Below are positions 9,289 to 20,545 of a stretch of DNA of 64,000 nucleotides, piece by piece. Below the pieces are notes generated by a model that saw only the letters and a list, made by a program, of their open reading frames with translations, was not told where the DNA came from and did no database searches. Origin of the DNA: a virus; UHGV virus genome UHGV-0209617. One strand, written 5' to 3'. Position numbers and translations under genes: made by a program. Within the stretch, counting starts at the first letter, position 1; each line of letters starts with the position of its first letter.

Positions 9289-9830
9289 GAAGCAGATGAT
9301 ATTGGTGTTAGTTGGTTCCAATGGCTCTGGAAAAAGTACTATTACCAAATTCTTTGATGTTGTTGGCGAATATACTAATGCTGATGATATTGTAGCAGCC
9401 ACTGGAATGGATAATCTTGCTGCAGCACGAATGGCTGATGAAAAATGTATTCTGCTATAAAAGAAAAACGGGATTTTACCTTTGAAACGGTACTATCTTC
9501 AGAGTATAAGTTTGATATATTAAATAAGGCTAAAGCAGAGGGTATTTTATTAAGTGTGTATTTGTATTGACCGTGAATCCCTACATAAATGTAGCTAGAG
9601 TGCAGATGCGTGTAGCTAATGGTGGTCATTTTGTGGAAAAAGATAAGATTTTATCAAGATACTATAAATCATTGACAAATATAAAGAAACTGTTAGAAAT
9701 ATGTGATATTATGCATGTTTATGATAATACCGTTACCCCAACGCGTATCATACGAAAGCATAAGGATGATATTTCTACTTTTGCTAGTGAAATATGGAGC
9801 GAAGAGCAGATTCTAAAACTTATGTATTAA
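9278..9830 (+). pseudogene. Zeta-toxin-like P-loop kinase, disrupted by two frameshifts
   Basis: Walker A VLVGSNGSGKST in frame 2 (ORF 9257-9460); middle segment EKRDFTFETVLSSEYKFDILNKAKAEG only in frame 1; C-terminal RVANGGHFVEKDKILSRYYKSL in frame 0 (ORF 9567-9830); together about 190 aa. Confidence 0.5.
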
Positions 9831-9872
9831 GATGGTTTATGTGTTTGTATTTGTGTAAAAATAAGTGAGGAT

Positions 9873-10142
9873 ATGATTTATCCATTTATGACATTGGAAG
9901 ATGATACAGAAATTACTAATTCTGAAATGCAGGCAAATGGTGAGGTAAAGGTGTATGTTGAAACACCAGATGAAAAGGATTGTTTCCATAGTATGATATG
10001 TTATCTTCCTGATTATCGTGTTGAAAAGGTAGAGGGGTATTCAGAAGAAGTGGAAAAGTATCTTGATTTTATTCGCAAGGCTGCGAATCTTATCCTTGAA
10101 TTTTCTCAGGAAGGTGGATTTAACCATGCCAAAGCTGTTTAA
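9873..10142 (+). CDS. Hypothetical small acidic protein
   Basis: 89 aa ORF, no motif recognised. Confidence 0.3.
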   Translation: MIYPFMTLEDDTEITNSEMQANGEVKVYVETPDEKDCFHSMICYLPDYRVEKVEGYSEEVEKYLDFIRKAANLILEFSQEGGFNHAKAV

Positions 10143-10470
10143 GATTGGTTGCCTCATATTCCAGATACATTAAGAAACATTATGCGTATTTTTAGCAATG
10201 GGGCAGAATAGGGCATAACGGGGCATTTTAGAGCATTTCAGGAAAGGAAAATGGCATGAATAAGATTTTGTTTATCTGCCACGGCAGCGTATAAGGATAG
10301 AGTCGATAAACCGCATGGCTACGGGACTTTTGCAACGGTTAAATGATATTCATATACTGAAAGCATACCGTTTATGCTGGGTCTTGTATATTCTATTGTG
10401 AAACGGTTACATTGAATTATTAAACGATACATATACATTAACGATTTAATCGTTAAATAATACCTTTGAG

Positions 10471-10496
10471 ACTCCCGGCTGTGCCTGGGAGTTTTT
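10471..10496 (+). terminator. Intrinsic terminator
   Basis: Hairpin ACTCCCGG..CCTGGGAGT followed by TTTTT. Confidence 0.5.
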
Positions 10497-10565
10497 CAAT
10501 ATAGGAGAAGGCGAATTTACTTCATAGGAAATGTTCTTATAGCTGTTGCCGTTGTACTATTGACT

Positions 10566-10574
10566 TGCTATAAT
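10566..10574 (+). promoter_or_regulatory. Extended -10 element (TGcTATAAT) upstream of Sel1/DUF6273-like gene
   Basis: TGCTATAAT at 10566-10574; only a weak -35 (TTGCCG) about 19 nt upstream. Confidence 0.3.
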
Positions 10575-10622
10575 TTAATAAATGACAATATTAATTTAAT
10601 GAAGATACGGAGATTTGAGCAT

Positions 10623-11441
10623 ATGGAAAAGAATCTTGATGAGGCTGTTAAATGGTTGCGTAAGGCAGCAGAGCTTGGGCATAAGGATGCAATGGTAAAG
10701 CTGGGCGAGCTACTCAGTGGTACAGAGGAGCCATTGACAAAACTATTGGAAAAATCATATATGGAAGGCTATGCAGATGGCAAAAATGGCAAGGCTAATA
10801 AATATTTCAAGGAAGCATATATTAAATCTACTATGGATAGAGCAGGTTTTGTTAATGTTAAGGTTGGAGATATAATCACATTTGGCAATTATTGGCAGGA
10901 TAAAGATAAGTCAGCTGGTAAGCAGCCAGTAGAGTGGCAGGTGCTTGATGTCAAGGATGGCAAGGCATTAGTTATTAGTAAATATGGTTTAATAAATCAT
11001 AAATATAATAAAGAATGGACGGATGTTACATGGGAAACATGTACCTTGAGAAAATGGCTGAATGATACCTTTATTAAGGATATTTTCTCCGCAGAGGAAA
11101 TGAAGGCTGTTATGTTATCAGATGTTAGTGCAGATAAAAATCCTAATTATAACACAAATCAGGGAAATGACACTAAGGATAAATTGTTCCTGCTGAGTAT
11201 AAAGGAAGTGGAGCAATATTTTGTTAGTGATGAAAAAAGACTGTGTAAGCCAACAGAATATGCAGTTAACAACGGAGCTTATGAGAATAACCGTGGGCAT
11301 AGTTGGTGGTGGCTACGCTCTGCTGGTGGCTATAGTAGCGATGCGGCGTATGTGGTCAGTTATGGCTGCGTCTACTACAGTGGCCGTAGTGTGTTCAGCG
11401 ACGATGGTTCTGTGCGCCCAGCTTTTTGGCTAAATCTTTAG
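10623..11441 (+). CDS. Sel1-like repeat plus DUF6273-like C-terminal domain protein
   Basis: ATG 10623 preceded by GGAG; N-terminus AVKWLRKAAELGHKDAMVKLGELL is Sel1/TPR-like; C-terminus WWWLRSAGGYSSDAAYVVSYGCVYYSGRSVFSDDGSVRPAFWL resembles DUF6273. Confidence 0.5.
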   Translation: MEKNLDEAVKWLRKAAELGHKDAMVKLGELLSGTEEPLTKLLEKSYMEGYADGKNGKANKYFKEAYIKSTMDRAGFVNVKVGDIITFGNYWQDKDKSAGKQPVEWQVLDVKDGKALVISKYGLINHKYNKEWTDVTWETCTLRKWLNDTFIKDIFSAEEMKAVMLSDVSADKNPNYNTNQGNDTKDKLFLLSIKEVEQYFVSDEKRLCKPTEYAVNNGAYENNRGHSWWWLRSAGGYSSDAAYVVSYGCVYYSGRSVFSDDGSVRPAFWLNL

Positions 11442-12350
11442 TCTAAAATCTTCAAATCTATGAATACGATAAGTGAAAAGTAGAAAAATAAAACAGGTAA
11501 TTTACCTGCGAAGCAGGGGTGAAATTTTTTAGGAGTATAGGCTGTGAAAAAAAGGTTAGCGAAACTTTTGTAAGCAGATTGCAGAATTTAAGTTTATCAG
11601 CCATAGAAAATCTGTATAGAGCCAATGATATATTTGTGCAGCGTGGCAATTTGAGTGCCTTGGAACTGACAGGCACTTTTAATGATAAATAGTAATGTTA
11701 AATAGCTGTATTATAAAGACAGCTAGAAACAATTTTTCAGCGGGGTAACATACTCAATAGGAAGCAAGAGTATGTTGCTCCGCTGATTTTTTAGTTTAGG
11801 TTGAGTATGTAGAACTGCTATTGGCAGGGGTGGGTATGTAGGGACAATGTGGTTCTGAAATAGTGAACATATCGAAGCTGAAAGGTACGTGGATATTGAG
11901 GTTAGGTAGATATGTTCAGTGCGAGCAGGTTGAATAGATATGAAAAGAAAATGCCCCAGACCGTGGTATTCCACTTCCTACAATAATTCAGTATGGCAGT
12001 GCCGTAACCGCTATTCAGCCGTGAAATGCAAGACCATGAATATCTATGACAAGCTGCTGTTTATGTCCTGCACGATGTGGCAAAGGACATACGGACAGCA
12101 ATAGTGGAATTCGCAGCAGATGTGGTCAGTGCTGACAGGCTGGCAGCCATTGAACGCTACATAGAGAACTTTGAAAGCATGAGTGCCTGGAAGATGCTTT
12201 CCAATGCAGATGACCTGTAATTCGTGATGAACATGGTTCTGGTCAAAACGGATAGGCGCATTGAGGTGATATGGTTGGACGGTGGTGTGGATGGATATGA
12301 AATTCCGAGGTATACACCGAAGGGGGGATAGAATGATTAGGTGTCTTTTT
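11442..12350. other. About 0.9 kb with no convincing gene; probable decayed coding remnants
   Basis: Only short, frame-switching ORFs; one 52-codon stretch (..VLHDVAKDIRTAIVEFAADVVSADRLAAIERYIENFESMSAWKML) looks protein-like but lacks a start. Confidence 0.3.
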
Positions 12351-12382
12351 AGCATTGTAAAAGTAATTACATTTACAATGCT
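12351..12382. repeat. 32 bp near-perfect palindrome, candidate operator
   Basis: AGCATTGTAAAAGTAATTACATTTACAATGCT has 11 bp perfect arms around a palindromic core; TTGTAAT and GTAATTACA recur at 12403-12425, overlapping the predicted -35. Confidence 0.7.
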
Positions 12383-12414
12383 AAAAAGATGTAGAAAATA
12401 TTTTGTAATAGGGA

Positions 12415-12443
12415 TTGTAATTACAGCTTAAATATGCTAAAAT
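12415..12443 (+). promoter_or_regulatory. Predicted sigma-A promoter of the RM operon
   Basis: -35 TTGTAA (12415-12420), 17 nt spacer, extended -10 TGcTAAAAT (12435-12443). Confidence 0.5.
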
Positions 12444-12688
12444 ATAAGATGAAAGACTATATGGAAATGGAGGAACTACAGTTGAGCGAAATGAAAAGAA
12501 AAATGCCTATGGAACATTTGAATATTGGTGAGTTCAACCGTGGGCAATCTTCAAAACTAATCCGTAACTTGGTGGAAAAAGATAATGCTGCATTTATACA
12601 AAAAAATGGGAAGCCAATAGCCGTTGTTATCTCCTATGAACGATACGAGAGACTGCTTGAGTCTGGCATTGATATCAATGAGTTCTGA
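12434..12688 (+). CDS. Phd/YefM-like small protein (antitoxin fold), putative regulator; start codon uncertain
   Basis: IGEFNRGQSSKLIRNLVEKDNAAFIQKNGKPIAVVISYERYERLLE matches the Phd/YefM pattern; no toxin gene follows; the listed ATG at 12434 overlaps the predicted -10, so the real start is probably TTG 12482 (GGAGG 8 nt upstream) or ATG 12491. Confidence 0.55.
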   Translation: MLKYKMKDYMEMEELQLSEMKRKMPMEHLNIGEFNRGQSSKLIRNLVEKDNAAFIQKNGKPIAVVISYERYERLLESGIDINEF

Positions 12689-12720
12689 GTATTCAAAACA
12701 TGATTAAGGAGGTAACGGAG

Positions 12721-14355
12721 ATGGTTGCGAAAAATTATGGTGTTGTTTACACACCGAATAGACTGGCTGAGTTCGCAGCAGAACTTTTATATAGAGAGGC
12801 AGCAGAAACTAATACAGAAATAAAGTCGGTATTGGATCCTGCGTGTGGCGAATGCGCATTGCTATGTGCTGCAAAGAAATATTTGAATGGTAATGTGAAA
12901 TATTTGGGAATTGATGTCGATAAAGAAGCAATAATGAATGTTGAGGATGATTTTGAAATTCTTTATAATGATTCAATTCTTCCGCGAAATGTAAAAAAAC
13001 AGACGGCAGAATATTGGAAGAGCAAGATGCCAGTAATATCTGCTATAATTGCAAATCCACCGTGGAGTTCCGAAAAAATATATGTGCGAGAAGAATTGCA
13101 GAGTGCCGGTTTCTCGTTGACCACAGGACAATATGATAGCTTTGTGCTATTTATTGAGTTGGCATATAATCTGCTTGATGATGGAGGATACTTTTCGTTT
13201 ATTATCCCCGATTCGTTATTTGATGCACAAAACGAAAAACTAAGAAGATTTTTGACTGAAAAGATGCAAATCAAAGTGATTGCCAGACTTGGAGAGAAGA
13301 TTTTTGAAGAAGTGAATAGAGCAACTACTGTTATTGTTTGCAGAAAAGAAAAGCCAGTCAAAGATTCTGTCACCCACTGTTTCAGACTTACTACGGAAGA
13401 AAGAAGAAAGTTTTTGAATTCGAATCAGAGTTTGTTAAACTTTTACAACGAAGATGTGCATGATGTGTTGCAGGGGCGATTTGCTGAAAACGCTGCCTGT
13501 AACTTTGACGTTGATACGCGCACTGATGAAGAGGCATTGTTGGCTAAAATTAAGAAGCAGTCTATAAGTTGGGAGGATATATTCATTTTTGGTCGAGGTG
13601 TTGAGATATCCAAAACAGGAAAGGTCGTATTTTGTCCTTCGTGTGGTTATGCCCAAGGGTATAAAAAATCACAAATGGCTGAAGGAAAAAAAGAATGTAC
13701 GAACTGTGGCAGTGAGATATCGGTTACTACGGCAAGTGTTCAAAATGTTATTTCACAAAGTCAAACGCCACAGACTGTTCAGATATATGTTGGAGAGAAT
13801 GTTCGGAGATATGGAATAACAGGAGAATGCTATATCAAACCCAACATTCCCGGAATCAATTATAAAAATCGTGCGATGTACAACCCACCAAAACTGTTGG
13901 TGAGAAAGACTGGACTTGGAATATATGCATCGATTGATTATACGGGAAGCATGACAAGTCAGGCTGTATATATTTTGAAATTTAAAAACAGTCAACATAA
14001 GGCTCCGTTGGAATATTATCTGGCATTGCTTAACTCACGAGTGGTCTACTATTTTTATTTGAAAGTATATGGAGAAAATGAATGGAAGTCCCATCCGTAC
14101 TTTACGAAACAGATTATTTATTCTCTGCCTATTAGAGAATATGAGGATAGTGAGTTAGATAAACAGATCATTAAAGTGGCATCGGAATTGGCGCATAAAT
14201 ATGAATATGTCAAGGATGTTCAGCTTGAGAAGTTGGTAATGAAAAAGTATGGTCTGTCAGAGACCGAAAGCAATATGGTTTATGGTGAGATGAATCGTCT
14301 GCCTGACTTGAGTGCGATTAACAATATGAAAGTTGAGGTGGAAGCGAATGTATAG
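12721..14355 (+). CDS. N6-adenine DNA methyltransferase, gamma class (Eco57I-like), with TaqI-like C-terminal target-recognition region and internal C4 zinc ribbon
   Basis: ATG 12721 with AAGGAGG 8 nt upstream; motifs GVVYTP, LDPACGECALL (AdoMet binding), IIANPPWSS (NPPW catalytic); internal CPSCGY..CTNCG. Confidence 0.85.
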   Translation: MVAKNYGVVYTPNRLAEFAAELLYREAAETNTEIKSVLDPACGECALLCAAKKYLNGNVKYLGIDVDKEAIMNVEDDFEILYNDSILPRNVKKQTAEYWKSKMPVISAIIANPPWSSEKIYVREELQSAGFSLTTGQYDSFVLFIELAYNLLDDGGYFSFIIPDSLFDAQNEKLRRFLTEKMQIKVIARLGEKIFEEVNRATTVIVCRKEKPVKDSVTHCFRLTTEERRKFLNSNQSLLNFYNEDVHDVLQGRFAENAACNFDVDTRTDEEALLAKIKKQSISWEDIFIFGRGVEISKTGKVVFCPSCGYAQGYKKSQMAEGKKECTNCGSEISVTTASVQNVISQSQTPQTVQIYVGENVRRYGITGECYIKPNIPGINYKNRAMYNPPKLLVRKTGLGIYASIDYTGSMTSQAVYILKFKNSQHKAPLEYYLALLNSRVVYYFYLKVYGENEWKSHPYFTKQIIYSLPIREYEDSELDKQIIKVASELAHKYEYVKDVQLEKLVMKKYGLSETESNMVYGEMNRLPDLSAINNMKVEVEANV

Positions 14356-15406
14356 ATATATAGGAAACAAATCAAAGCTGACTCCATACATTCTTGATAG
14401 GGTGGAACAGCTTATTGGAAAAACAGGAATTGTTGCTGACATTATGGCTGGAACAGGAACTGTGGCATTAGAATTGAGAAAAGCAGGTTATTCGGTTATC
14501 GCATCTGATGTAATGACCTATTCGTACCATCATTTGATGGTTAATCTTTGCTTAGATTCAGCTCCTTCTTTTTCTGGGCTTGTGAATCATGGAGCAATAG
14601 GCAAGAATGAGGTGGATGCATATGGTGCAATCCTGACTTATTTAAATTGCATTGAACCCAAAGAAGGTTTTTTCTTCAAGGAATTTTCTCCGGGTGGAAC
14701 ACCGCAGAATGGTTGCGACCCGAGAAAATATTTCACTACGGAAAATGCAAAGAAAATTGATGCGATTAGAGAAAAAATAAATGAGTGGATTGATAATGGA
14801 TATGTGAGCAAAGCTGAAGAATCGCTTTTAAAACATACTCTTATTATGGCAGTAAACGAGGTTGCCAATATATCTGGAACTTACGGATATTTTTTGGCTG
14901 ATTTCAAAAAGAATGCCAATGCACAGATTGATTTAAAACCTGTGGAATTTTGTTCTGTGAATTCAACTGGTCACATGGTAAAATTGGGATTTGCTGAAAA
15001 TTTAGCTGCAACAATTACAGTTGATTTGTGCTACATCGACCCTCCGTATATGAAGAGACAGTATGCTGCGAATTATCATATTCTGGAAACCATTGCACGA
15101 GGAGATTTCCCTGATGCTGTTGGTAAAAGTGGCTTGCGTGACTGGTGGGAGCAGCACTCTAAATTGTGTACCAAAACACGAGGATTACAATCGTTTGAAA
15201 AGATATTAGGTGATATGCATTGCCCGAAATTTCTGATTAGCTACAGTGAGGATGGTTTGTTTACGCTGGGGCAATTAGAAGAATGTTTTAGCAAGTTTGG
15301 AACTGTTGACGTTCAAGAAATTGATTACAATCGATTTAGAAGCAATGATAGCAAGTTGCCTAAAAAACTGAAGGAATATTTGATTTCTATAGAAAGGCAG
15401 GTATAA
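14348..15406 (+). CDS. DNA adenine methyltransferase, Dam-like (D12 class)
   Basis: ATG 14348 with AGGTGG upstream, overlapping the preceding stop by 8 nt; motifs RYIGNKSKL and DPPY. Confidence 0.8.
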   Translation: MYRYIGNKSKLTPYILDRVEQLIGKTGIVADIMAGTGTVALELRKAGYSVIASDVMTYSYHHLMVNLCLDSAPSFSGLVNHGAIGKNEVDAYGAILTYLNCIEPKEGFFFKEFSPGGTPQNGCDPRKYFTTENAKKIDAIREKINEWIDNGYVSKAEESLLKHTLIMAVNEVANISGTYGYFLADFKKNANAQIDLKPVEFCSVNSTGHMVKLGFAENLAATITVDLCYIDPPYMKRQYAANYHILETIARGDFPDAVGKSGLRDWWEQHSKLCTKTRGLQSFEKILGDMHCPKFLISYSEDGLFTLGQLEECFSKFGTVDVQEIDYNRFRSNDSKLPKKLKEYLISIERQV

Positions 15407-15410
15407 GTGA

Positions 15411-17081
15411 ATGGAGTGCATTGAAAGAATATTTTACAGAAAGATTAATCCTTCTGATTTCAAAAAGTTGTATGATATTGACAAACCAGAAGGTGGCGGT
15501 GGTCAGACATACTTGGAAGCCGCTGGTATTTCAAATGAAAAAATCGTTGATTTCCTTTCCTATGCGGAGGTTACAAACAGTCCTTTGCCAGATGAAACAA
15601 GGTCTGTTTATACATTCAATGCCTATGTTTTGGGCGATTCAAAGGGTAAATGTTCGTTTGTAGAATTTGCACCTCGCAAAGGAAGAAATAACTATCGTAT
15701 AAGCCGTCAGAACATGAAATATAAACATCCGGCATGGAGTTTGGATAATGGATTTCCCGAACCATCAAAAGGTGATGATGGCGAATACACATCTGCAGGC
15801 GATTTTGTGGGAATCATTGATAATCTTGTTATTCTTATCATAAGAACTACAAATCGGCGTTATTATGCAGGTTTTGTAAATATAGCGACAATGCCAGAGA
15901 ACTGGCCACACAATATTGGCTTAGAGGGCATTTTTAGTGGTGAACGCAGAGATGTACTAAAAATGGATGCGTATAAACTACAGTTTGTTAATGATGCCTG
16001 TAATCCATTCGGTGATTATGTCCCAACAATCGAAGAATGTAATCGAGCGACTACTGGTTGCAATGTGCTTTTGTACGGAGTTCCCGGAGCAGGAAAGAGT
16101 TGGACAATTGAACACGAATATTGTGCCGATGAAGGGTGTATGGAGCGATTGGTTTTCCATCCGGATTATATGTATTCGGATTTCGTTGGACAAATTTTGC
16201 CTGTAGTAAGGGACGATGACAAGGTTCGTTATGAGTTTACGCCGGGTCCGTTTACCAAATTATTAAAAAAAGCATATTGGAATACAGAACAGTCTTTTTA
16301 CCTTATAATAGAAGAAATAAATCGTGGTAATGCACCAGCGATATTCGGTGAAATATTTCAGCTTTTGGATAGAAAAGATGAAGACGAAATAGATGAAAAT
16401 AGGGAGATTCTCTACAAAAAAGGCACAAGTGAGTATGGAATAACAAATGCCAATATTGCACGAATCGTTTATGGCGATGAAAACCATAAGGTTCGAATTC
16501 CTGCAAATATGTCTATTTTGGGTACAATGAATACTTCTGACCAAAATGTTTTTACATTAGACACAGCATTTCAGAGAAGATGGATTATGAGAATGATTCC
16601 GAATTCATTTGATAACCATAAGTTCGCAGACAAGAAGATTTTGGATACTGATATTTCCTGGAGACAGTTCTGTGAAGCAATTAATGAGGAAATTTTGCGT
16701 AGAAACAACATCACATCTTCTGAGGATAAGCGACTTGGGGCATATTTTATCTCGGCTTCGGATTTGGAGATGAAACCAATCACAGACGGGATGAGCGAAA
16801 AAGAAAAAATCCAAGTGGAGCATAGCAACAGCAGATTTGCAGAAAAAGTATTGAAATATTTATGGGATGATGCTTTCAAATTTTCCCATCAAGATACATT
16901 TAACACAAGACAGTTTGGTAGTCTTGAAAAAGTTATCGAAGGCTTTATGAATCCTGCCAAGCCTAAAAATGAGCGTTTTCGTGTATTCAATGAGAACCTT
17001 CGTAAAATGATTTTGGATGGAGTAACAGCAGAATCAAACGAGGTTTCTGATGATGACAGCGAAGGCTCACAGGAATCTTAA
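15411..17081 (+). CDS. McrB-like GTPase subunit (LlaJI R1-like) with N-terminal DNA-recognition domain
   Basis: Walker A LLYGVPGAGKSW; McrB signature IIEEINRGNAPAIFGEIFQLLDR; TMNTSDQNVFTLDTAFQRRW; starts 4 nt after the second methyltransferase. Confidence 0.85.
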   Translation: MECIERIFYRKINPSDFKKLYDIDKPEGGGGQTYLEAAGISNEKIVDFLSYAEVTNSPLPDETRSVYTFNAYVLGDSKGKCSFVEFAPRKGRNNYRISRQNMKYKHPAWSLDNGFPEPSKGDDGEYTSAGDFVGIIDNLVILIIRTTNRRYYAGFVNIATMPENWPHNIGLEGIFSGERRDVLKMDAYKLQFVNDACNPFGDYVPTIEECNRATTGCNVLLYGVPGAGKSWTIEHEYCADEGCMERLVFHPDYMYSDFVGQILPVVRDDDKVRYEFTPGPFTKLLKKAYWNTEQSFYLIIEEINRGNAPAIFGEIFQLLDRKDEDEIDENREILYKKGTSEYGITNANIARIVYGDENHKVRIPANMSILGTMNTSDQNVFTLDTAFQRRWIMRMIPNSFDNHKFADKKILDTDISWRQFCEAINEEILRRNNITSSEDKRLGAYFISASDLEMKPITDGMSEKEKIQVEHSNSRFAEKVLKYLWDDAFKFSHQDTFNTRQFGSLEKVIEGFMNPAKPKNERFRVFNENLRKMILDGVTAESNEVSDDDSEGSQES

Positions 17082-17097
17082 AGCGAGGTGAGCGACA

Positions 17098-18378
17098 TTG
17101 GATTTAGGCTTAAACTTAAAAGTTAAATGTCATGTGAATAAAAATGGTGATGGCGATAGGTTTGTCGGGATTAAGGCTGATGCTAATCAAGCAATGGTCT
17201 ATTTTCCAATGGGGTATCGCCTGCCAGACAATGAAGAAGATATTAGGGATGATATTCTAAAATTGATTTCTGTATTAGCTGAGTTTACGGATTCAAAAGA
17301 CAAGGTATTGGCTATGCAGAAATTTGAAGCACCACAGTCTGTGAATTTTCCAATCAATGCCTATATGAATATTATCCGATACTATTTGGAACAACGTTCA
17401 TATTACACAGAAAAGGATCCTATTCTAAAGACGAGTGACAGAGGAAAAATCGACTTTGCAGCATCTTTGCGTAGAAATGTTAGCTTTTTTCAAGAAGATG
17501 GAACTCCGTTTTTTGATAAATATACAGTAAAAGGGTCAACTCCTAATGATAAAAATTTAATAACTATGATTCACAAATACTGTGTGCATGAAAGTTTTGC
17601 TCAGATGGGTTGGCTGTTTATGCCGGATGTCCCACAAGATCCACATATTGAACGAAACATTCCGCTTTTCCTCAGTGTACTGAAGAAAAAATTGGCAGTC
17701 ACGCATCTTGAAAAGGATATTCTGCTATTTGAAGCAATGATTTCTATGCTGGAATATTTGGATGAGAAAAGTGACGATAAACAATACTATTTTGGAACAG
17801 ATAGATTTGAATATGTGTGGGAAAAACTGATAGATGCAGTGTTTGGCATAAAAGAAAAGAATGATTATTTTCCACGAACCTCTTGGAAACTAAACTATGG
17901 TGACCAACGAAGAAATTATGCATTAGAGCCGGACACCATAATGCTTTGTAATGGAAAAATCTATGTCATTGATGCAAAGTATTATAGATACGGTGTAACC
18001 GGTACACCTTCGCATTTGCCGGAATCATCATCTATCAACAAGCAGATTACATATGGTGAGTACATATATAATCATAAGAAATTTAAGGATGTATATGGTG
18101 ATGATGTTCCTGTGTATAACGCATTCCTTATGCCGTATAACAAACAGGATAATCCATTTCATATCAATGAGTATTTCGCCAATATTGGTGAGGCTGATAG
18201 TGACTGGAAATATGGCAATCATAATTATGAACGGGTGCAAGGAATTGTAGTTGATATTCGTTTCTTGATGAACAATTACTATGGTTCGCACAAGAGTAAA
18301 ATTATTAAGATGGCGAAGCTCATCGAGGAAGCCCTGCAGGAAAATGCAGATACGCTTCCAGAAGAAAAGACTGAATAA
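17098..18378 (+). CDS. McrC-like PD-(D/E)xK nuclease subunit (LlaJI R2-like)
   Basis: TTG start with GAGGTG 7 nt upstream, 16 nt after the McrB-like gene; IYVIDAKYY matches the McrC-type nuclease motif. Confidence 0.7.
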   Translation: MDLGLNLKVKCHVNKNGDGDRFVGIKADANQAMVYFPMGYRLPDNEEDIRDDILKLISVLAEFTDSKDKVLAMQKFEAPQSVNFPINAYMNIIRYYLEQRSYYTEKDPILKTSDRGKIDFAASLRRNVSFFQEDGTPFFDKYTVKGSTPNDKNLITMIHKYCVHESFAQMGWLFMPDVPQDPHIERNIPLFLSVLKKKLAVTHLEKDILLFEAMISMLEYLDEKSDDKQYYFGTDRFEYVWEKLIDAVFGIKEKNDYFPRTSWKLNYGDQRRNYALEPDTIMLCNGKIYVIDAKYYRYGVTGTPSHLPESSSINKQITYGEYIYNHKKFKDVYGDDVPVYNAFLMPYNKQDNPFHINEYFANIGEADSDWKYGNHNYERVQGIVVDIRFLMNNYYGSHKSKIIKMAKLIEEALQENADTLPEEKTE

Positions 18379-18418
18379 AAAATCCGCAAGCAGTGATTAT
18401 GCTGTTTGCGGATTTTTT
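18377..18418. terminator. Bidirectional intrinsic terminator between convergent genes
   Basis: AAAAAATCCGCAAGCAG..CTGTTTGCGGATTTTTT, about 15 bp stem with one mismatch, A-run and T-run on either side. Confidence 0.6.
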
Positions 18419-19601
18419 ATTTGCCCTTTTGAACTTTGATGCGATGGGAACGTTGATTATTTGCGTTTCTACAGTTACTGCAACAATATTTATTTCTACT
18501 ATTGGATGTCTTTACTAAGAAATATTTATGGCAAGAAGGATTGGCACACTTTCTATATATTTCAGATCCGGGTTTCATGTAGAAAATAGAAAAATATAAT
18601 GCAGAAAGCAATGATGGTGCCTTCCACGACGGTTCCAGTGAATTGGGACTGTAGAAAGGTTTTATACTTCTGGTATTATGATTTATTTCCCCACTTAAAA
18701 CGAGTCGTGCGATAAGAGTAGCAGCCTCTTTTAATGGACTGTTAAATTTGCTGAAATCTGGACTACTATAGTATTCAATGCCGCCCTCGAAAGTTACAGC
18801 TTTTATTACACCAACAGAATGCATATAGTGAAACAGGAATTCAACCATTAGTCGGAGCTTCTTGGATTGAATATTGTTATTCTTGTAAGCAATAGTAACC
18901 TGGCGATACAGCGTATCATTAATTCCAGGATAATCGTATGTAAATGTTTCTCCGTTTGAAATATCATCATATTCATCAGCATTTAATTCATATGAAGGAG
19001 CATAAATCATGTCTTTTACGGTAATAGATTCTGTTTCAGAGGATTGCTGTAGTGAATCGATAGAGGCTTGATTTCTGATGCTATCATGAAATGGATGCCG
19101 ATAGGTTGAATAAGTAATTCGTGCAGTGCCATTAAGCGTAACTTGTGTCCCAAGAAGCAAATACAAAGTTAAATGTAGAATCTGTTCATAATCAAGTGAT
19201 GGTTTTTCCACTGCGGCCATAAGGAGAACTGTAGCCTTTATTCGATTCAAGACTTCTACAAGCGCTACTATATCAATTTCCGTTCCTTCGGGCGAAATAG
19301 GAAGTAGATAACCATGTTCCTCGAAAAAACCAAGGACCTTTTTTACATTGGTTGCCGGAAGCGATATCAGAGAACCGAGAACATTTTTATTTTGAAGTGA
19401 ACCGTGTGGAGTCGTTAAACATAAACCTCGGCTTCCGCTAAAGGCATAATTTATAATTTCATCATTCACGGGATAGACTGTTAATATTTTATGCGCCTGC
19501 CCGTCCGTCTTTAAGACTTCTTCTATTCTAAATGTACATTTTTTGCAACTCAAAGAAAAATAATCGTTGCTAAGATTGAAAAAATTGTCTAACTCAGTCA
19601 T
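18417..19601 (-). CDS. Hypothetical protein with C-terminal CGNR-type zinc finger
   Basis: 394 aa; C-terminus CANPSCHKYFLVKTSNSRNKYCCSNCRNANNQRSHR fits the CGNR zinc-finger pattern; N-terminal 330 aa unrecognised. Confidence 0.5.
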   Translation of the reverse strand: MTELDNFFNLSNDYFSLSCKKCTFRIEEVLKTDGQAHKILTVYPVNDEIINYAFSGSRGLCLTTPHGSLQNKNVLGSLISLPATNVKKVLGFFEEHGYLLPISPEGTEIDIVALVEVLNRIKATVLLMAAVEKPSLDYEQILHLTLYLLLGTQVTLNGTARITYSTYRHPFHDSIRNQASIDSLQQSSETESITVKDMIYAPSYELNADEYDDISNGETFTYDYPGINDTLYRQVTIAYKNNNIQSKKLRLMVEFLFHYMHSVGVIKAVTFEGGIEYYSSPDFSKFNSPLKEAATLIARLVLSGEINHNTRSIKPFYSPNSLEPSWKAPSLLSALYFSIFYMKPGSEIYRKCANPSCHKYFLVKTSNSRNKYCCSNCRNANNQRSHRIKVQKGK

Positions 19602-19639
19602 AAAAAACTACTCCATATTTCCTTGCCCCTCGTAGAAGG

Positions 19640-19800
19640 GTCTTTTTTTATGTCGAAAAGTAAGTGATTACATAAGTAATAATGTAATTATAACGCTTAC
19701 TATTGCTTGTTTCAAGCTAGTATAGTAATGAAATACACAGAAAGTAAGTGATTATATCAGAAATTTACTTACTATACTGAAATTCTTATACTTAAAGACA
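19640..19800. repeat. AT-rich repeat cluster at cargo/prophage boundary
   Basis: AGTAAGTGATTA at 19663 and 19745; CTTACTAT at 19707 and 19770; short inverted matches between them. Confidence 0.4.
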
Positions 19801-20035
19801 GTGAAGGACAACCAAACTTTATATACAGCGGAGGTGTTTTTCACATCCCTGTTTCAATGTTCATCGCCTGATCAGCGATGCCCAGAGCGGAGAAACGGAC
19901 ACAAGTAAATATCAGTCAACCCACTGGGACGGTTGGCCAGCTAAGAAATGAGGATTTCATTCTTATGGCCAATTATTATGGGAAGTTCAGTGTGGGTCCT
20001 CATTTCGGTTTTCAGACCGAAGGAGGGTCTACACG

Positions 20036-20545
20036 ATGGACAAATTTGAAAATCTACAGACAAGCAACGAGAAGCAGTATTACATTCCTTTGGAAGTAAC
20101 CGCAGAAACTATCAGAGATTTTGGCATCAACCCTAAAGATGTGGTATGGACGAGAATCGGGAACAAGCCTAAAAAGGTTGTTATGATTCCCGTAACCGAG
20201 GAGCAGTACAAAACATTTATGCGTCCTCTGTGGCGTGAGGACAAGCGTCAGCAAAGACAGGAGCCGATGGCATCGCTGGATAAGATGTACGAAAAAACCG
20301 AGTACGAAGCGGCTGATACCGACTCTGACCTTGAAGCGAATATTATGAAGAAAATGCTGATTGATGAGCTTCACAAGGCACTGGATGAACTGGAAGAAAT
20401 CGACCGCACCATTATGAAGATGTACAGCAATAACCATAGCGAAGCCGAAATCGGACAGACTATCGGTATGAGCCAGAAGGGTGTTAATAAACGTAAGCAC
20501 AAGGTGCTGCTGAAACTTAACACCAGATTGAAAGACTTCAGATAA
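20036..20545 (+). CDS. Sigma-70 family (region 4 HTH) regulator
   Basis: AAGGAGGG 9 nt upstream; C-terminal SEAEIGQTIGMSQKGVNKRKHKVLLKL is a sigma-70 region 4-type HTH. Confidence 0.6.
   Translation: MDKFENLQTSNEKQYYIPLEVTAETIRDFGINPKDVVWTRIGNKPKKVVMIPVTEEQYKTFMRPLWREDKRQQRQEPMASLDKMYEKTEYEAADTDSDLEANIMKKMLIDELHKALDELEEIDRTIMKMYSNNHSEAEIGQTIGMSQKGVNKRKHKVLLKLNTRLKDFR

What the first reader, a model, noticed from the sequence alone, without database searches (positions are those of the whole stretch)
18417..19601. CGNR zinc-finger protein with an unrecognised N-terminal domain, convergent on the RM operon
The C-terminal CGNR-type zinc finger is normally attached to other N-terminal domains; here the 330 aa N-terminal region is unrecognised. 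Its position next to an RM operon and a prophage boundary makes a defence or regulatory role plausible.
Basis: inference. Interest (0 to 1): 0.4.

Follow-up and report, generated by a model that had tools for sequence, protein, structure and literature searches.

The report
Zinc-finger partner gene of LlaJI restriction cassettes
This gene encodes an uncharacterised zinc-finger protein that almost always travels with one type of restriction-modification (anti-virus) gene cassette carried by prophages of gut Firmicutes, so it is probably that cassette's own DNA-binding regulator, a partner nobody has described.

Summary
Bases 18417-19601 (-) hold an intact 394-aa gene. Its C-terminus has a conserved four-cysteine CGNR-type zinc finger. 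Its first ~345 residues match nothing in Pfam, NCBIfam, PADLOC or the PDB. It converges on a LlaJI-type (McrBC-like) restriction-modification (R-M) operon across a bidirectional terminator.

The main finding is that the gene belongs to that R-M cassette, not to the phage core:
- A LlaJI-type endonuclease sits next to it in 64 of 76 genome and reference-phage loci.
- 78 of 80 endonuclease-seeded viral contigs carry it.
- Among sister phages, 10 have both genes, 42 have neither and none has only one.
- Homology with cassette-free sisters breaks at 12334 and 19846, which encloses the gene and its promoter.
- Its divergence tracks the endonuclease (rho 0.78), not phage genes (~0.27).

Phased TTACT-core repeats flank its promoter in 68 of 101 loci, and the finger tail is strongly basic. 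This points to an autoregulated DNA-binding regulator. The target and signal are unknown.

The studied prototype LlaJI on plasmid pNP40 works without this gene, and pNP40's closest relatives keep decayed remnants. The protein is therefore dispensable for cutting itself.

Rating: new variant of a known kind, moderate interest.

The parts
12334..19846 (.). Variable cargo cassette: LlaJI-type R-M operon plus the CGNR gene and its promoter
   Evidence: blastn against sister phages that lack the cassette (L180, L182, L191, L197, L200). Homology ends at 12333 on the left (L182, L191) and resumes at ~19837-19848 on the right, running to 25177.
12350..12384 (.). Perfect 12-nt-arm palindrome (TAGCATTGTAAA...TTTACAATGCTA) at the left edge of the cassette; candidate operator or terminator
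   Evidence: Read directly from the sequence; function not tested.
12415..12443 (+). Candidate promoter of the R-M operon (TTGTAA-17-TAAAAT), overlapped by a GTAATTAC box
   Evidence: Read from the sequence. GTAATYAC sites lie at 12363 and 12417. This is inference only.
12434..12688 (+). Small first gene of the R-M operon, Phd/YefM-like; the true start is probably downstream of 12434
   Evidence: Pfam PhdYeFM_antitox E 1.7e-6, below the cut-off. Other cassettes have HTH_17 or HTH_26 genes at this position.
12700..14355 (+). DNA methyltransferase (N6_Mtase / Eco57I / TaqI_C)
   Evidence: Pfam.
14333..15406 (+). D12-class N6-adenine DNA methyltransferase
   Evidence: Pfam E 3.5e-27.
15411..17081 (+). 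McrB-like AAA+ subunit (counterpart of R1.LlaJI)
   Evidence: Pfam AAA_5 E 1.5e-11. Homologues are present in 73 of 85 CGNR-seeded loci.
17098..18378 (+). LlaJI-family restriction endonuclease (counterpart of R2.LlaJI)
   Evidence: Pfam RE_LlaJI E 2.1e-28. About 50% identical to pNP40 R2.LlaJI.
18379..18416 (.). Bidirectional intrinsic terminator between the endonuclease and the CGNR gene
   Evidence: The 18372-18425 hairpin folds at -29.7 kcal/mol on (+) and -22.2 on (-), z-scores -9.2 and -7.3, with U-runs on both sides.
18417..19601 (-). The finding: a 394-aa protein. Residues 1-~228 form an acidic novel domain, ~229-345 a helix/beta-hairpin region, and 346-394 a CGNR-type zinc finger with a basic helix
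19657..19670 (.). Operator-like repeat copy 1 (AAAGTAAGTGATTA), just downstream of the -10 of the CGNR promoter
   Evidence: only two exact copies in 64 kb. Conserved in L006.
19687..19715 (-). Promoter of the CGNR gene (TTGAAA-17-TATAAT, 11 of 12 matches)
   Evidence: conserved in L006.
19741..19754 (.). Operator-like repeat copy 2, 84 bp from copy 1 and upstream of the -35; an inverted ACTTACT half-site lies next to it
19847..20035 (+). Conserved phage sequence upstream of the sigma-like early gene; it begins exactly where the cassette ends
20036..20545 (+). Phage sigma-like early gene (sigma-70 region 4), divergent from the CGNR gene; a core phage gene, not part of the cassette
   Evidence: Pfam Sigma70_r4_2 E 2e-6. 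A divergent homologue lies beside CGNR in 55 of 67 loci. It is also present in sister phages that lack the cassette.

Best explanation
The gene is the conserved fifth gene of a LlaJI-type (McrBC-like) restriction-modification cassette. That cassette occupies a defence-cargo slot in Heliusvirales / Phi1207.3-like prophages of Bacillota.

Shown: the protein is gained, lost and diversified together with the restriction subunits (the AAA+ R1 and the LlaJI R2). The methyltransferases and the phage backbone change independently of it.

Inferred: it is a two-part, autoregulated DNA-binding regulator.
- The basic C-terminal CGNR zinc finger would bind phased TTACT-core repeats that bracket its own sigma-70 promoter. 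These sit 42 or 84 bp apart, one upstream of the -35 and one just downstream of the -10.
- The acidic N-terminal domain of novel fold would be a sensing or protein-contact module.
- Because its operators lie at the junction between the cassette and the phage's sigma-led early operon, and not at the R-M promoter, the most likely job is control of transcription at that junction. This would cover its own level and traffic between the constitutively expressed cassette and the silent phage early genes. It would adapt the restriction cassette to life inside a prophage.

It is not needed for cutting or methylation as such.
For: Cassette membership.
- A LlaJI endonuclease lies 0-130 bp downstream and convergent in 64 of 76 CGNR-seeded loci with enough flank.
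- 78 of 80 endonuclease-seeded IMG/VR loci carry CGNR; the other 2 end within 1.2 kb of the endonuclease.
- All 7 endonuclease-positive reference phages have it.
- Among sister phages with 67-91% identical DUF2800 and at least 4 kb of flank, 10 have both genes, 42 have neither and 0 are discordant.
- The homology breakpoints at 12333/19847 enclose the gene and its promoter.
- Pairwise-distance correlation is 0.78 for CGNR~RE and 0.65 for CGNR~AAA, against 0.26-0.27 for the sigma-like gene, DUF2800 and PolA.
- The same slot in sister phages holds type I R-M, ABC-3C and AAA_13 systems.

DNA-binding regulator.
- The four-Cys finger is invariant.
- The finger tail has net charge +11.
- The gene has a strong promoter of its own, flanked by two exact 14-mers 84 bp apart.
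- [ACG]TTACT occurs 2.2 times per 260 nt upstream of the gene in 101 non-redundant loci. The figure is 0.56 at R-M promoters and 0.44 in background. Spacings peak at 42-43 and 84-85 bp.

Dispensable for restriction.
- pNP40 LlaJI works with four genes (PMC1459862).
- pNP40's endonuclease is nested among CGNR-linked ones, and its closest plasmid relatives keep truncated CGNR remnants.

Tie to the junction. The divergent pair of sigma-like gene and CGNR is kept in all rearranged layouts.
Against: - No binding has been shown. The repeats could be bound by another factor.
- The shuffled control for the motif was mononucleotide only. The comparison with R-M promoters and background is the sturdier control.
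- The motif is not enriched at the R-M operon promoter, so direct control of the restriction genes is unsupported.
- Cassettes already carry a small HTH or Phd-like first gene that could be the controller.
- A 394-aa protein with a large conserved domain of novel fold is more than a simple repressor needs.
- Three loci keep an intact gene even though the R-M operon there is transcribed away from the sigma-like gene (L021, L026, L057). Simple insulation therefore cannot be the whole story.
- Much of the co-occurrence comes from one related phage lineage, so the loci are not independent.
- A few divergent members sit beside other defence genes instead: a GmrSD-like protein, and an AAA + S8 protease pair.
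Confidence: 0.5

Rival explanations
1. The protein is a working part of the defence itself rather than a regulator. It could be a sensor or guard bound to the McrB/McrC-like complex that reacts to phage anti-restriction factors, as PrrC does within the EcoprrI cassette. It could also be an extra targeting subunit, with the zinc finger holding DNA or RNA.
For: - Co-divergence is strongest with the endonuclease (0.78) and the ATPase (0.65), stronger than plain linkage to neighbours on the other side.
- The large conserved N-terminal domain has a novel fold and a very acidic 186-228 segment that could mimic DNA or contact partners.
- Divergent members sit next to other defence genes.
Against: - The prototype LlaJI restricts phage without it (PMC1459862).
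- It is a separate transcription unit on the opposite strand with its own promoter and terminator.
- The conserved residues are mostly hydrophobic, with no clear catalytic motif. R250-x7-H258 does not fit the HEPN Rx4-6H motif.
- There is no PADLOC hit.
Confidence: 0.17
2. It is the controller of the restriction genes, the functional equivalent of a C protein. It would delay or tune R1/R2 expression when the prophage enters an unmethylated host.
For: - It is linked to the R genes rather than to any particular methyltransferase type.
- In L021, L026 and L057 it lies upstream of the R-M operon and points the same way, the classical controller position.
- In the window, two GTAATTAC boxes at the R-M promoter resemble the GTAATCAC core of its own repeats.
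Against: - The family-wide TTACT motif is not enriched upstream of R-M operons: 0.56 versus 0.44 in background.
- The usual orientation is convergent, behind a terminator.
- A small HTH or Phd-like gene already heads the operon.
- Plasmid-borne relatives face the same establishment problem, yet they have lost the gene.
- The GTAATYAC excess in the window is weak: 9 matches against 2.8 expected, reached by 1 of 100 shuffles.
Confidence: 0.15
3. It is the prophage's lysogeny repressor, a CI analogue that silences the divergent sigma-led early operon. On this view the R-M cassette is just neighbouring cargo.
For: - It is the only leftward gene in a long rightward array.
- It is divergent from the early sigma-like gene in 55 of 67 loci, and that pair is kept through inversions.
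- Truncated copies occur where the sigma-like gene is missing.
- No other repressor is annotated in related phages.
Against: - 42 sister phages with the same early region and adequate flank lack it entirely. In its place they carry type I R-M, ABC-3C or AAA_13 operons, not another regulator.
- The closest reference relative, NatCom_9291, has the sigma-like gene but no CGNR.
- The gene and its operators lie inside the swapped cassette.
- It co-diverges with the endonuclease, not with phage genes.
Confidence: 0.06

Closest known systems
LlaJI restriction-modification system of Lactococcus lactis plasmid pNP40 (O'Driscoll et al. 2006, PMC1459862)
   Same: It has a McrB-like AAA+ subunit and a LlaJI-family PD-(D/E)XK subunit, preceded by two methyltransferases, all co-oriented. 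The window endonuclease is about 50% identical to R2.LlaJI.
   Different: The prototype has four genes and no CGNR gene. The window cassette uses N6-adenine-type methyltransferases instead of two m5C enzymes. It also has a small Phd-like first gene and the convergent CGNR gene.
ABATE-CGNR proteins (DUF1470; Jann_2411, PDB 3H0N, PMC2954205)
   Same: Both have a C-terminal treble-clef four-Cys finger followed by a basic helix. The family profile aligns to 3H0N residues 146-186. Both are presumed to bind DNA.
   Different: Those proteins are about 190 aa with an N-terminal ABATE domain. Here no ABATE domain is detected by Pfam or by fold search, and about 345 unrelated residues precede the finger.
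SpyI cassette of Streptococcus pyogenes prophage Phi1207.3 (orf12-15) and module A of Clostridioides difficile Tn6164 (Orf4-6)
   Same: Both show the same layout of AAA ATPase, LlaJI endonuclease and a convergent CGNR protein, followed by a sigma-like gene.
   Different: In those papers the gene is only listed in annotation tables as a zinc-finger protein. No link to the R-M system was drawn. The proteins are 26-28% identical to the window protein.
R-M controller (C) proteins and defence-island regulators such as BrxR and CapW
   Same: Each is a cassette-borne, probably autoregulated DNA-binding protein with repeated operators at its own promoter. BrxR and CapW also pair a DNA-binding part with a sensor part (comparison from general knowledge).
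   Different: The window protein has no HTH and no WYL domain. It is far larger than a C protein, is usually convergent with the operon rather than leading it, and shows no operator motif at the R-M promoter.

Membership tests
zf-CGNR (Pfam PF11706) | Four zinc-binding cysteines in a treble-clef spacing | tested here: met
   C352-x4-C357-x15-C373-x3-C377 is invariant in 31- and 43-sequence alignments.
zf-CGNR (Pfam PF11706) | Score at or above Pfam's gathering cut-off (24 bits) | tested here: inconclusive
   The window protein scores 18.8 bits, E 0.0014. Homologues P0083, P0097, P0099, P0105 and others score 25.6-30.1 bits. All 43 members match at E<=1.
zf-CGNR (Pfam PF11706) | C-G-N-R signature after the third cysteine | tested here: not met
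   It reads C-R-N-A in the window. In the family it varies (CRNA, CGNA, CCNR, CANS). Only the C and the N are kept.
ABATE-CGNR (DUF1470, PF07336 + PF11706) | N-terminal ABATE domain | tested here: not met
PHROG 30403 | Full-length profile match | tested here: met
   E 1.5e-43, residues 32-389 against profile positions 29-392 of 397; the family has no known function.
LlaJI-type R-M system (the cassette) | McrB-like AAA+ subunit and LlaJI-family nuclease subunit, adjacent and co-oriented | tested here: met
   AAA_5 at 15411-17081 and RE_LlaJI at 17098-18378.
LlaJI-type R-M system (the cassette) | Two m5C methyltransferases, one per strand of an asymmetric site | tested here: not met
   The window has N6_Mtase/Eco57I/TaqI_C and D12-class N6A enzymes. 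Other cassettes have C5, N4/N6 or gamma-type enzymes.
LlaJI-type R-M system (the cassette) | Restriction of unmethylated DNA, GTP-dependent | not testable with these tools
   Needs phage plating and biochemistry.
R-M controller (C) protein | Small Xre-type HTH protein upstream of, and co-transcribed with, the restriction gene, with C-boxes at that promoter | tested here: not met
   There is no HTH. The protein is 394 aa and convergent behind a terminator. Its motif is not enriched at R-M promoters.
Phage lysogeny repressor (CI-like) | Present in related temperate phages as part of the core switch | tested here: not met
   Absent from 42 sister phages with the same early region and from NatCom_9291.
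HEPN nuclease | Rx4-6H catalytic motif in a four-helix bundle | tested here: not met

The most novel reading that the evidence does not exclude
The protein is a new kind of defence-cassette component. Its novel-fold N-terminal domain would sense an infection cue, such as a phage anti-restriction factor or the state of the McrBC-like complex. Its zinc finger would then switch transcription at the cassette-prophage junction, or trigger a backup response. That would make phage-borne LlaJI systems five-gene systems wired to the prophage's sigma-led early programme.
Probability: 0.15. Interest if true: 0.75.

Novelty: new variant of a known kind. Interest (0 to 1): 0.5.

Why it matters
LlaJI-type systems are treated as four-gene R-M systems. 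That view rests on one plasmid copy, which this survey suggests is a derived, trimmed version. In the widespread gut prophages where these systems mostly live, a fifth gene of unknown fold is nearly always attached.

If it is a regulator at the boundary between a defence cassette and the phage's early operon, it would show how a prophage keeps a constitutively active weapon next to genes that must stay silent. It would also give the CGNR zinc-finger family its first concrete biological context.

The work also maps a defined defence-cargo slot in Heliusvirales-like prophages (12334-19846 here). Sister phages fill it with type I R-M, ABC-3C and AAA_13 systems.

Tried and rejected
- NCBIfam and PADLOC scans of the protein found nothing.
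- A PDB sequence search with the family profile matched only the finger region, weakly.
- The idea that residues ~229-345 are a hidden ABATE domain got no support.
- The CI-like repressor reading looked attractive from the divergent pairing with the sigma-like gene and from CGNR decay where that gene is missing. It was rejected once sister phages were compared.
- A link between the gene's repeats and the R-M promoter through GTAATYAC boxes is weak in the window and absent family-wide.
- tblastn with the sigma-like protein was too insensitive to survey phages, giving 4 hits. DUF2800 alone was too widespread, at 1710 records.
- Pfam on ten ORFs left of 12.4 kb gave nothing.
- Literature searches for CGNR together with restriction or LlaJI found only annotation-table mentions.

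Full report
**1. What is there**

The minus-strand ORF 18417-19601 is exactly as reported: 394 aa, ATG start, GGAG about 11 nt upstream. It is a real, intact gene.
- A search of 5.8 billion proteins found 220 homologues. The closest are 93% identical over the full length, and almost all are 390-420 aa.
- An exhaustive profile search of 1.84 billion cluster representatives found 890 clusters at E<=1e-3 and 222 at E<=1e-30, again nearly all full length.

The C-terminus (residues 350-387) matches Pfam zf-CGNR at only 18.8 bits, below the cut-off of 24. All 43 aligned family members hit that model, and several pass the cut-off. The four ligands C352, C357, C373 and C377 are invariant. The literal CGNR signature is not kept; it reads CRNA here.

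Nothing recognises residues 1-~345.
- Pfam, NCBIfam and PADLOC give no hit.
- PDB sequences match only at the finger.
- The ABATE domain that normally precedes CGNR fingers (PMC2954205) was not found.
- The one whole-length match is PHROG 30403, of unknown function.

The protein is bipolar. The N-terminal part is acidic, with residues 186-228 carrying net charge -9. The finger tail carries +11.

**2. Surroundings in the window**

Upstream on the plus strand runs a contiguous operon, 12434-18378:
- a small Phd-like gene;
- an N6_Mtase/Eco57I/TaqI_C methyltransferase;
- a D12-class N6A methyltransferase;
- an AAA_5 (McrB-like) protein;
- an RE_LlaJI endonuclease.

This is a LlaJI-type R-M system (PMC1459862). 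The 38 bp between the endonuclease and the CGNR gene fold into a strong hairpin on both strands, a bidirectional terminator.

On the other side, a 435-bp spacer separates the gene from a divergent sigma-70-region-4 protein. That protein is followed by a DUF2800 / DUF2815-type / PolA replication module. This layout is typical of Ca. Heliusvirales and Phi1207.3-like temperate phages.

**3. Is the neighbour relation conserved?**

I fetched 80 genome loci and 5 reference-phage loci that encode a homologue and searched their ORFs with profiles seeded from the window proteins.
- A LlaJI endonuclease homologue is present in 77 of 85 loci and the AAA partner in 73 of 85.
- In 64 of 76 loci with at least 1.5 kb downstream, the endonuclease is convergent with a gap of -11 to 127 bp, median 48.
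- This holds down to 26-28% protein identity (Streptococcus phages Phi1207.3 and phiD12). It also holds in C. difficile Tn6164 (PMC3485107).
- A sigma-like gene lies divergently upstream in 55 of 67 loci with enough flank.

At this stage two readings were open. The gene could be a phage switch repressor with an R-M cassette parked next to it, or it could be a component of the R-M cassette.

**4. The test that separates them**

- Seeding from the endonuclease: 78 of 80 IMG/VR viral loci carry the CGNR gene. The other two end 164 and 1120 bp after the endonuclease. 70 of them have the full-length gene in the convergent-adjacent position. All 7 reference phages with the endonuclease have it.
- Seeding from the phage backbone, using the window's DUF2800 protein (sister phages 67-91% identical): with at least 4 kb of upstream flank, 10 loci have both endonuclease and CGNR, 42 have neither and none has one alone. 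The 42 show about two dozen different gene patterns in that slot.
- The closest reference relative, NatCom_9291, has the sigma-like gene and other cargo, but neither the endonuclease nor CGNR.
- At the DNA level, homology between the window and cassette-free sisters stops at 12333 and resumes at ~19847. The swapped block, 12334-19846, therefore contains the operon, the CGNR gene, its promoter and its repeats.
- Pairwise protein distances of CGNR correlate with those of the endonuclease (Spearman 0.78, n=65) and the ATPase (0.65). Correlation with the sigma-like gene, DUF2800 and PolA is only 0.26-0.27.
- In sister phages the same slot holds type I R-M genes, two ABC-3C systems and an AAA_13 protein. 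It is a defence hotspot, and the genes next to the sigma-like gene there are defence genes, not regulators.

I conclude with high confidence that the gene belongs to the LlaJI-type cassette. The methyltransferases vary among cassettes (C5, N4/N6, gamma-type N6A), while the ATPase, the endonuclease and CGNR stay together.

**5. Is it needed for restriction?**

Apparently not.
- The prototype LlaJI on pNP40 has four genes and restricts phage in vivo (PMC1459862). No CGNR remnant is detectable there.
- The pNP40 endonuclease is not an outlier. It is 70% identical to endonucleases on Lactobacillaceae plasmids and 62% identical to a CGNR-linked prophage copy. The median among CGNR-linked copies is 52%.
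- Those Lactobacillaceae plasmids keep a truncated C-terminal half (189 aa) or only the finger of the CGNR gene, still convergent with the endonuclease.
- In genomes, four loci with truncated CGNR all keep the R-M genes but lack the sigma-like gene.

The pattern suggests that the five-gene, prophage-borne form is ancestral for this clade. The fifth gene seems to decay once the cassette leaves the prophage setting.

**6. What the protein probably does**

The gene has its own strong promoter (TTGAAA-17-TATAAT, 11 of 12). Two exact copies of AAAGTAAGTGATTA lie 84 bp apart. One sits just downstream of the -10 and the other upstream of the -35. They are the only exact copies in the 64-kb window, and both are kept in an 84%-identical relative.

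Across 101 non-redundant upstream regions:
- repeated 7-mers with a TTACT core are strongly over-represented;
- the hexamer [ACG]TTACT occurs 2.2 times per 260 nt, and 68 loci have at least two copies;
- the same hexamer occurs 0.56 times upstream of R-M operons and 0.44 times in background;
- sites cluster near 60-79 and 140-199 nt before the start codon;
- same-orientation spacings peak at 42-43 and 84-85 bp, that is four and eight helical turns.

A conserved motif core fits the fact that the finger and its basic helix are the best-conserved part of the protein. I therefore favour an autoregulated DNA-binding regulator whose known sites lie at the cassette-phage junction.

The divergent pair of sigma-like gene and CGNR is preserved through inversions (L043, L046, L070, L083 versus Phi1207.3). 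That hints at interplay with the early operon.

What it senses, and whether it also acts on the restriction genes or the early operon, is not shown. The main caveats are these:
- no binding data exist;
- the cassettes already have a small HTH or Phd-like first gene;
- three loci keep the gene although the operon there points away from the sigma-like gene;
- the loci are phylogenetically related.

**7. Comparison with what is known, and novelty**

The finger places the protein in the CGNR superfamily, but it is not an ABATE-CGNR protein. The cassette is LlaJI-type but differs from the prototype in its methyltransferases and in having this gene. The protein is not a C protein, not a WYL regulator and not a CI-like repressor (see the membership table).

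The library searched holds only annotation-table mentions of the gene next to LlaJI genes, in Phi1207.3 and Tn6164. I found no statement of a conserved association. I rate it a new variant of a known kind and of moderate interest. It is a robust comparative-genomic link with an unproven mechanism and a domain of unknown fold.

Noticed in passing
window 12334-19846 and sister loci L180-L251: A defined defence-cargo slot in these prophages is bounded by conserved sequence at 11953-12333 and from 19847 onward. Sister phages fill it with type I R-M (HsdM/S/R), ABC-3C systems (CTD6, CTD11 effectors), an AAA_13 protein and other unannotated operons.
   Followed up: partly
L087 (pNP40), L086 and L088 (Lactobacillaceae plasmids): The experimentally studied four-gene LlaJI appears to be a derived form. 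Its closest plasmid relatives retain a 189-aa C-terminal half, or only the finger, of the CGNR gene, convergent with the endonuclease.
   Followed up: yes
window 12700-15406: This LlaJI-type cassette uses two N6-adenine-type methyltransferases instead of the prototype's two m5C enzymes. Across cassettes the methyltransferases are swapped freely while the restriction subunits stay. R1 specificity must therefore change with them; this was not examined.
   Followed up: no
window 12350-12443: A perfect 12-nt-arm palindrome flanked by T/A runs and two GTAATTAC boxes lie around a candidate R-M promoter. The first gene of the operon is Phd/YefM-like rather than an HTH controller, and its annotated start at 12434 is probably too early.
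   Followed up: partly
window 19847-19935: A block upstream of the sigma-like gene is more conserved than its surroundings and contains a CATCGC...GCGATG hairpin. The short ORF 19878-20099 over it is not conserved as protein in L006, so this is probably a regulatory DNA or RNA element of the phage early region.
   Followed up: partly
L078 11538-12695; L069 6001-10838; L077 11400-13541: The most divergent family members lack LlaJI genes. They sit next to a GmrSD_N (DUF262) protein, an AAA + subtilase S8 + SMC-like trio, or a 714-aa protein with no Pfam hit plus DUF4268.
   Followed up: partly
many loci, e.g. L060 10500-11867: A RumA/TrmA-type uracil-5 RNA methyltransferase gene lies just beyond the R-M cassette in 24 loci. 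This suggests that these prophages integrate at or in that host gene. Large serine recombinases occur nearby in some loci.
   Followed up: partly
window 3000-12000: This stretch has low G+C (0.29-0.39, against ~0.47 for the phage body). Its ORFs have no Pfam hit, except a DUF6273/Sel1 protein at 10560-11441. A near-identical viral contig seems to start near window ~9900, so a prophage end may lie there.
   Followed up: partly
loci such as L058 8133-8915: A Bro-N + KilAC antirepressor gene directly follows the sigma-like gene in many of these prophages. No conventional repressor is annotated in the related reference phages.
   Followed up: no
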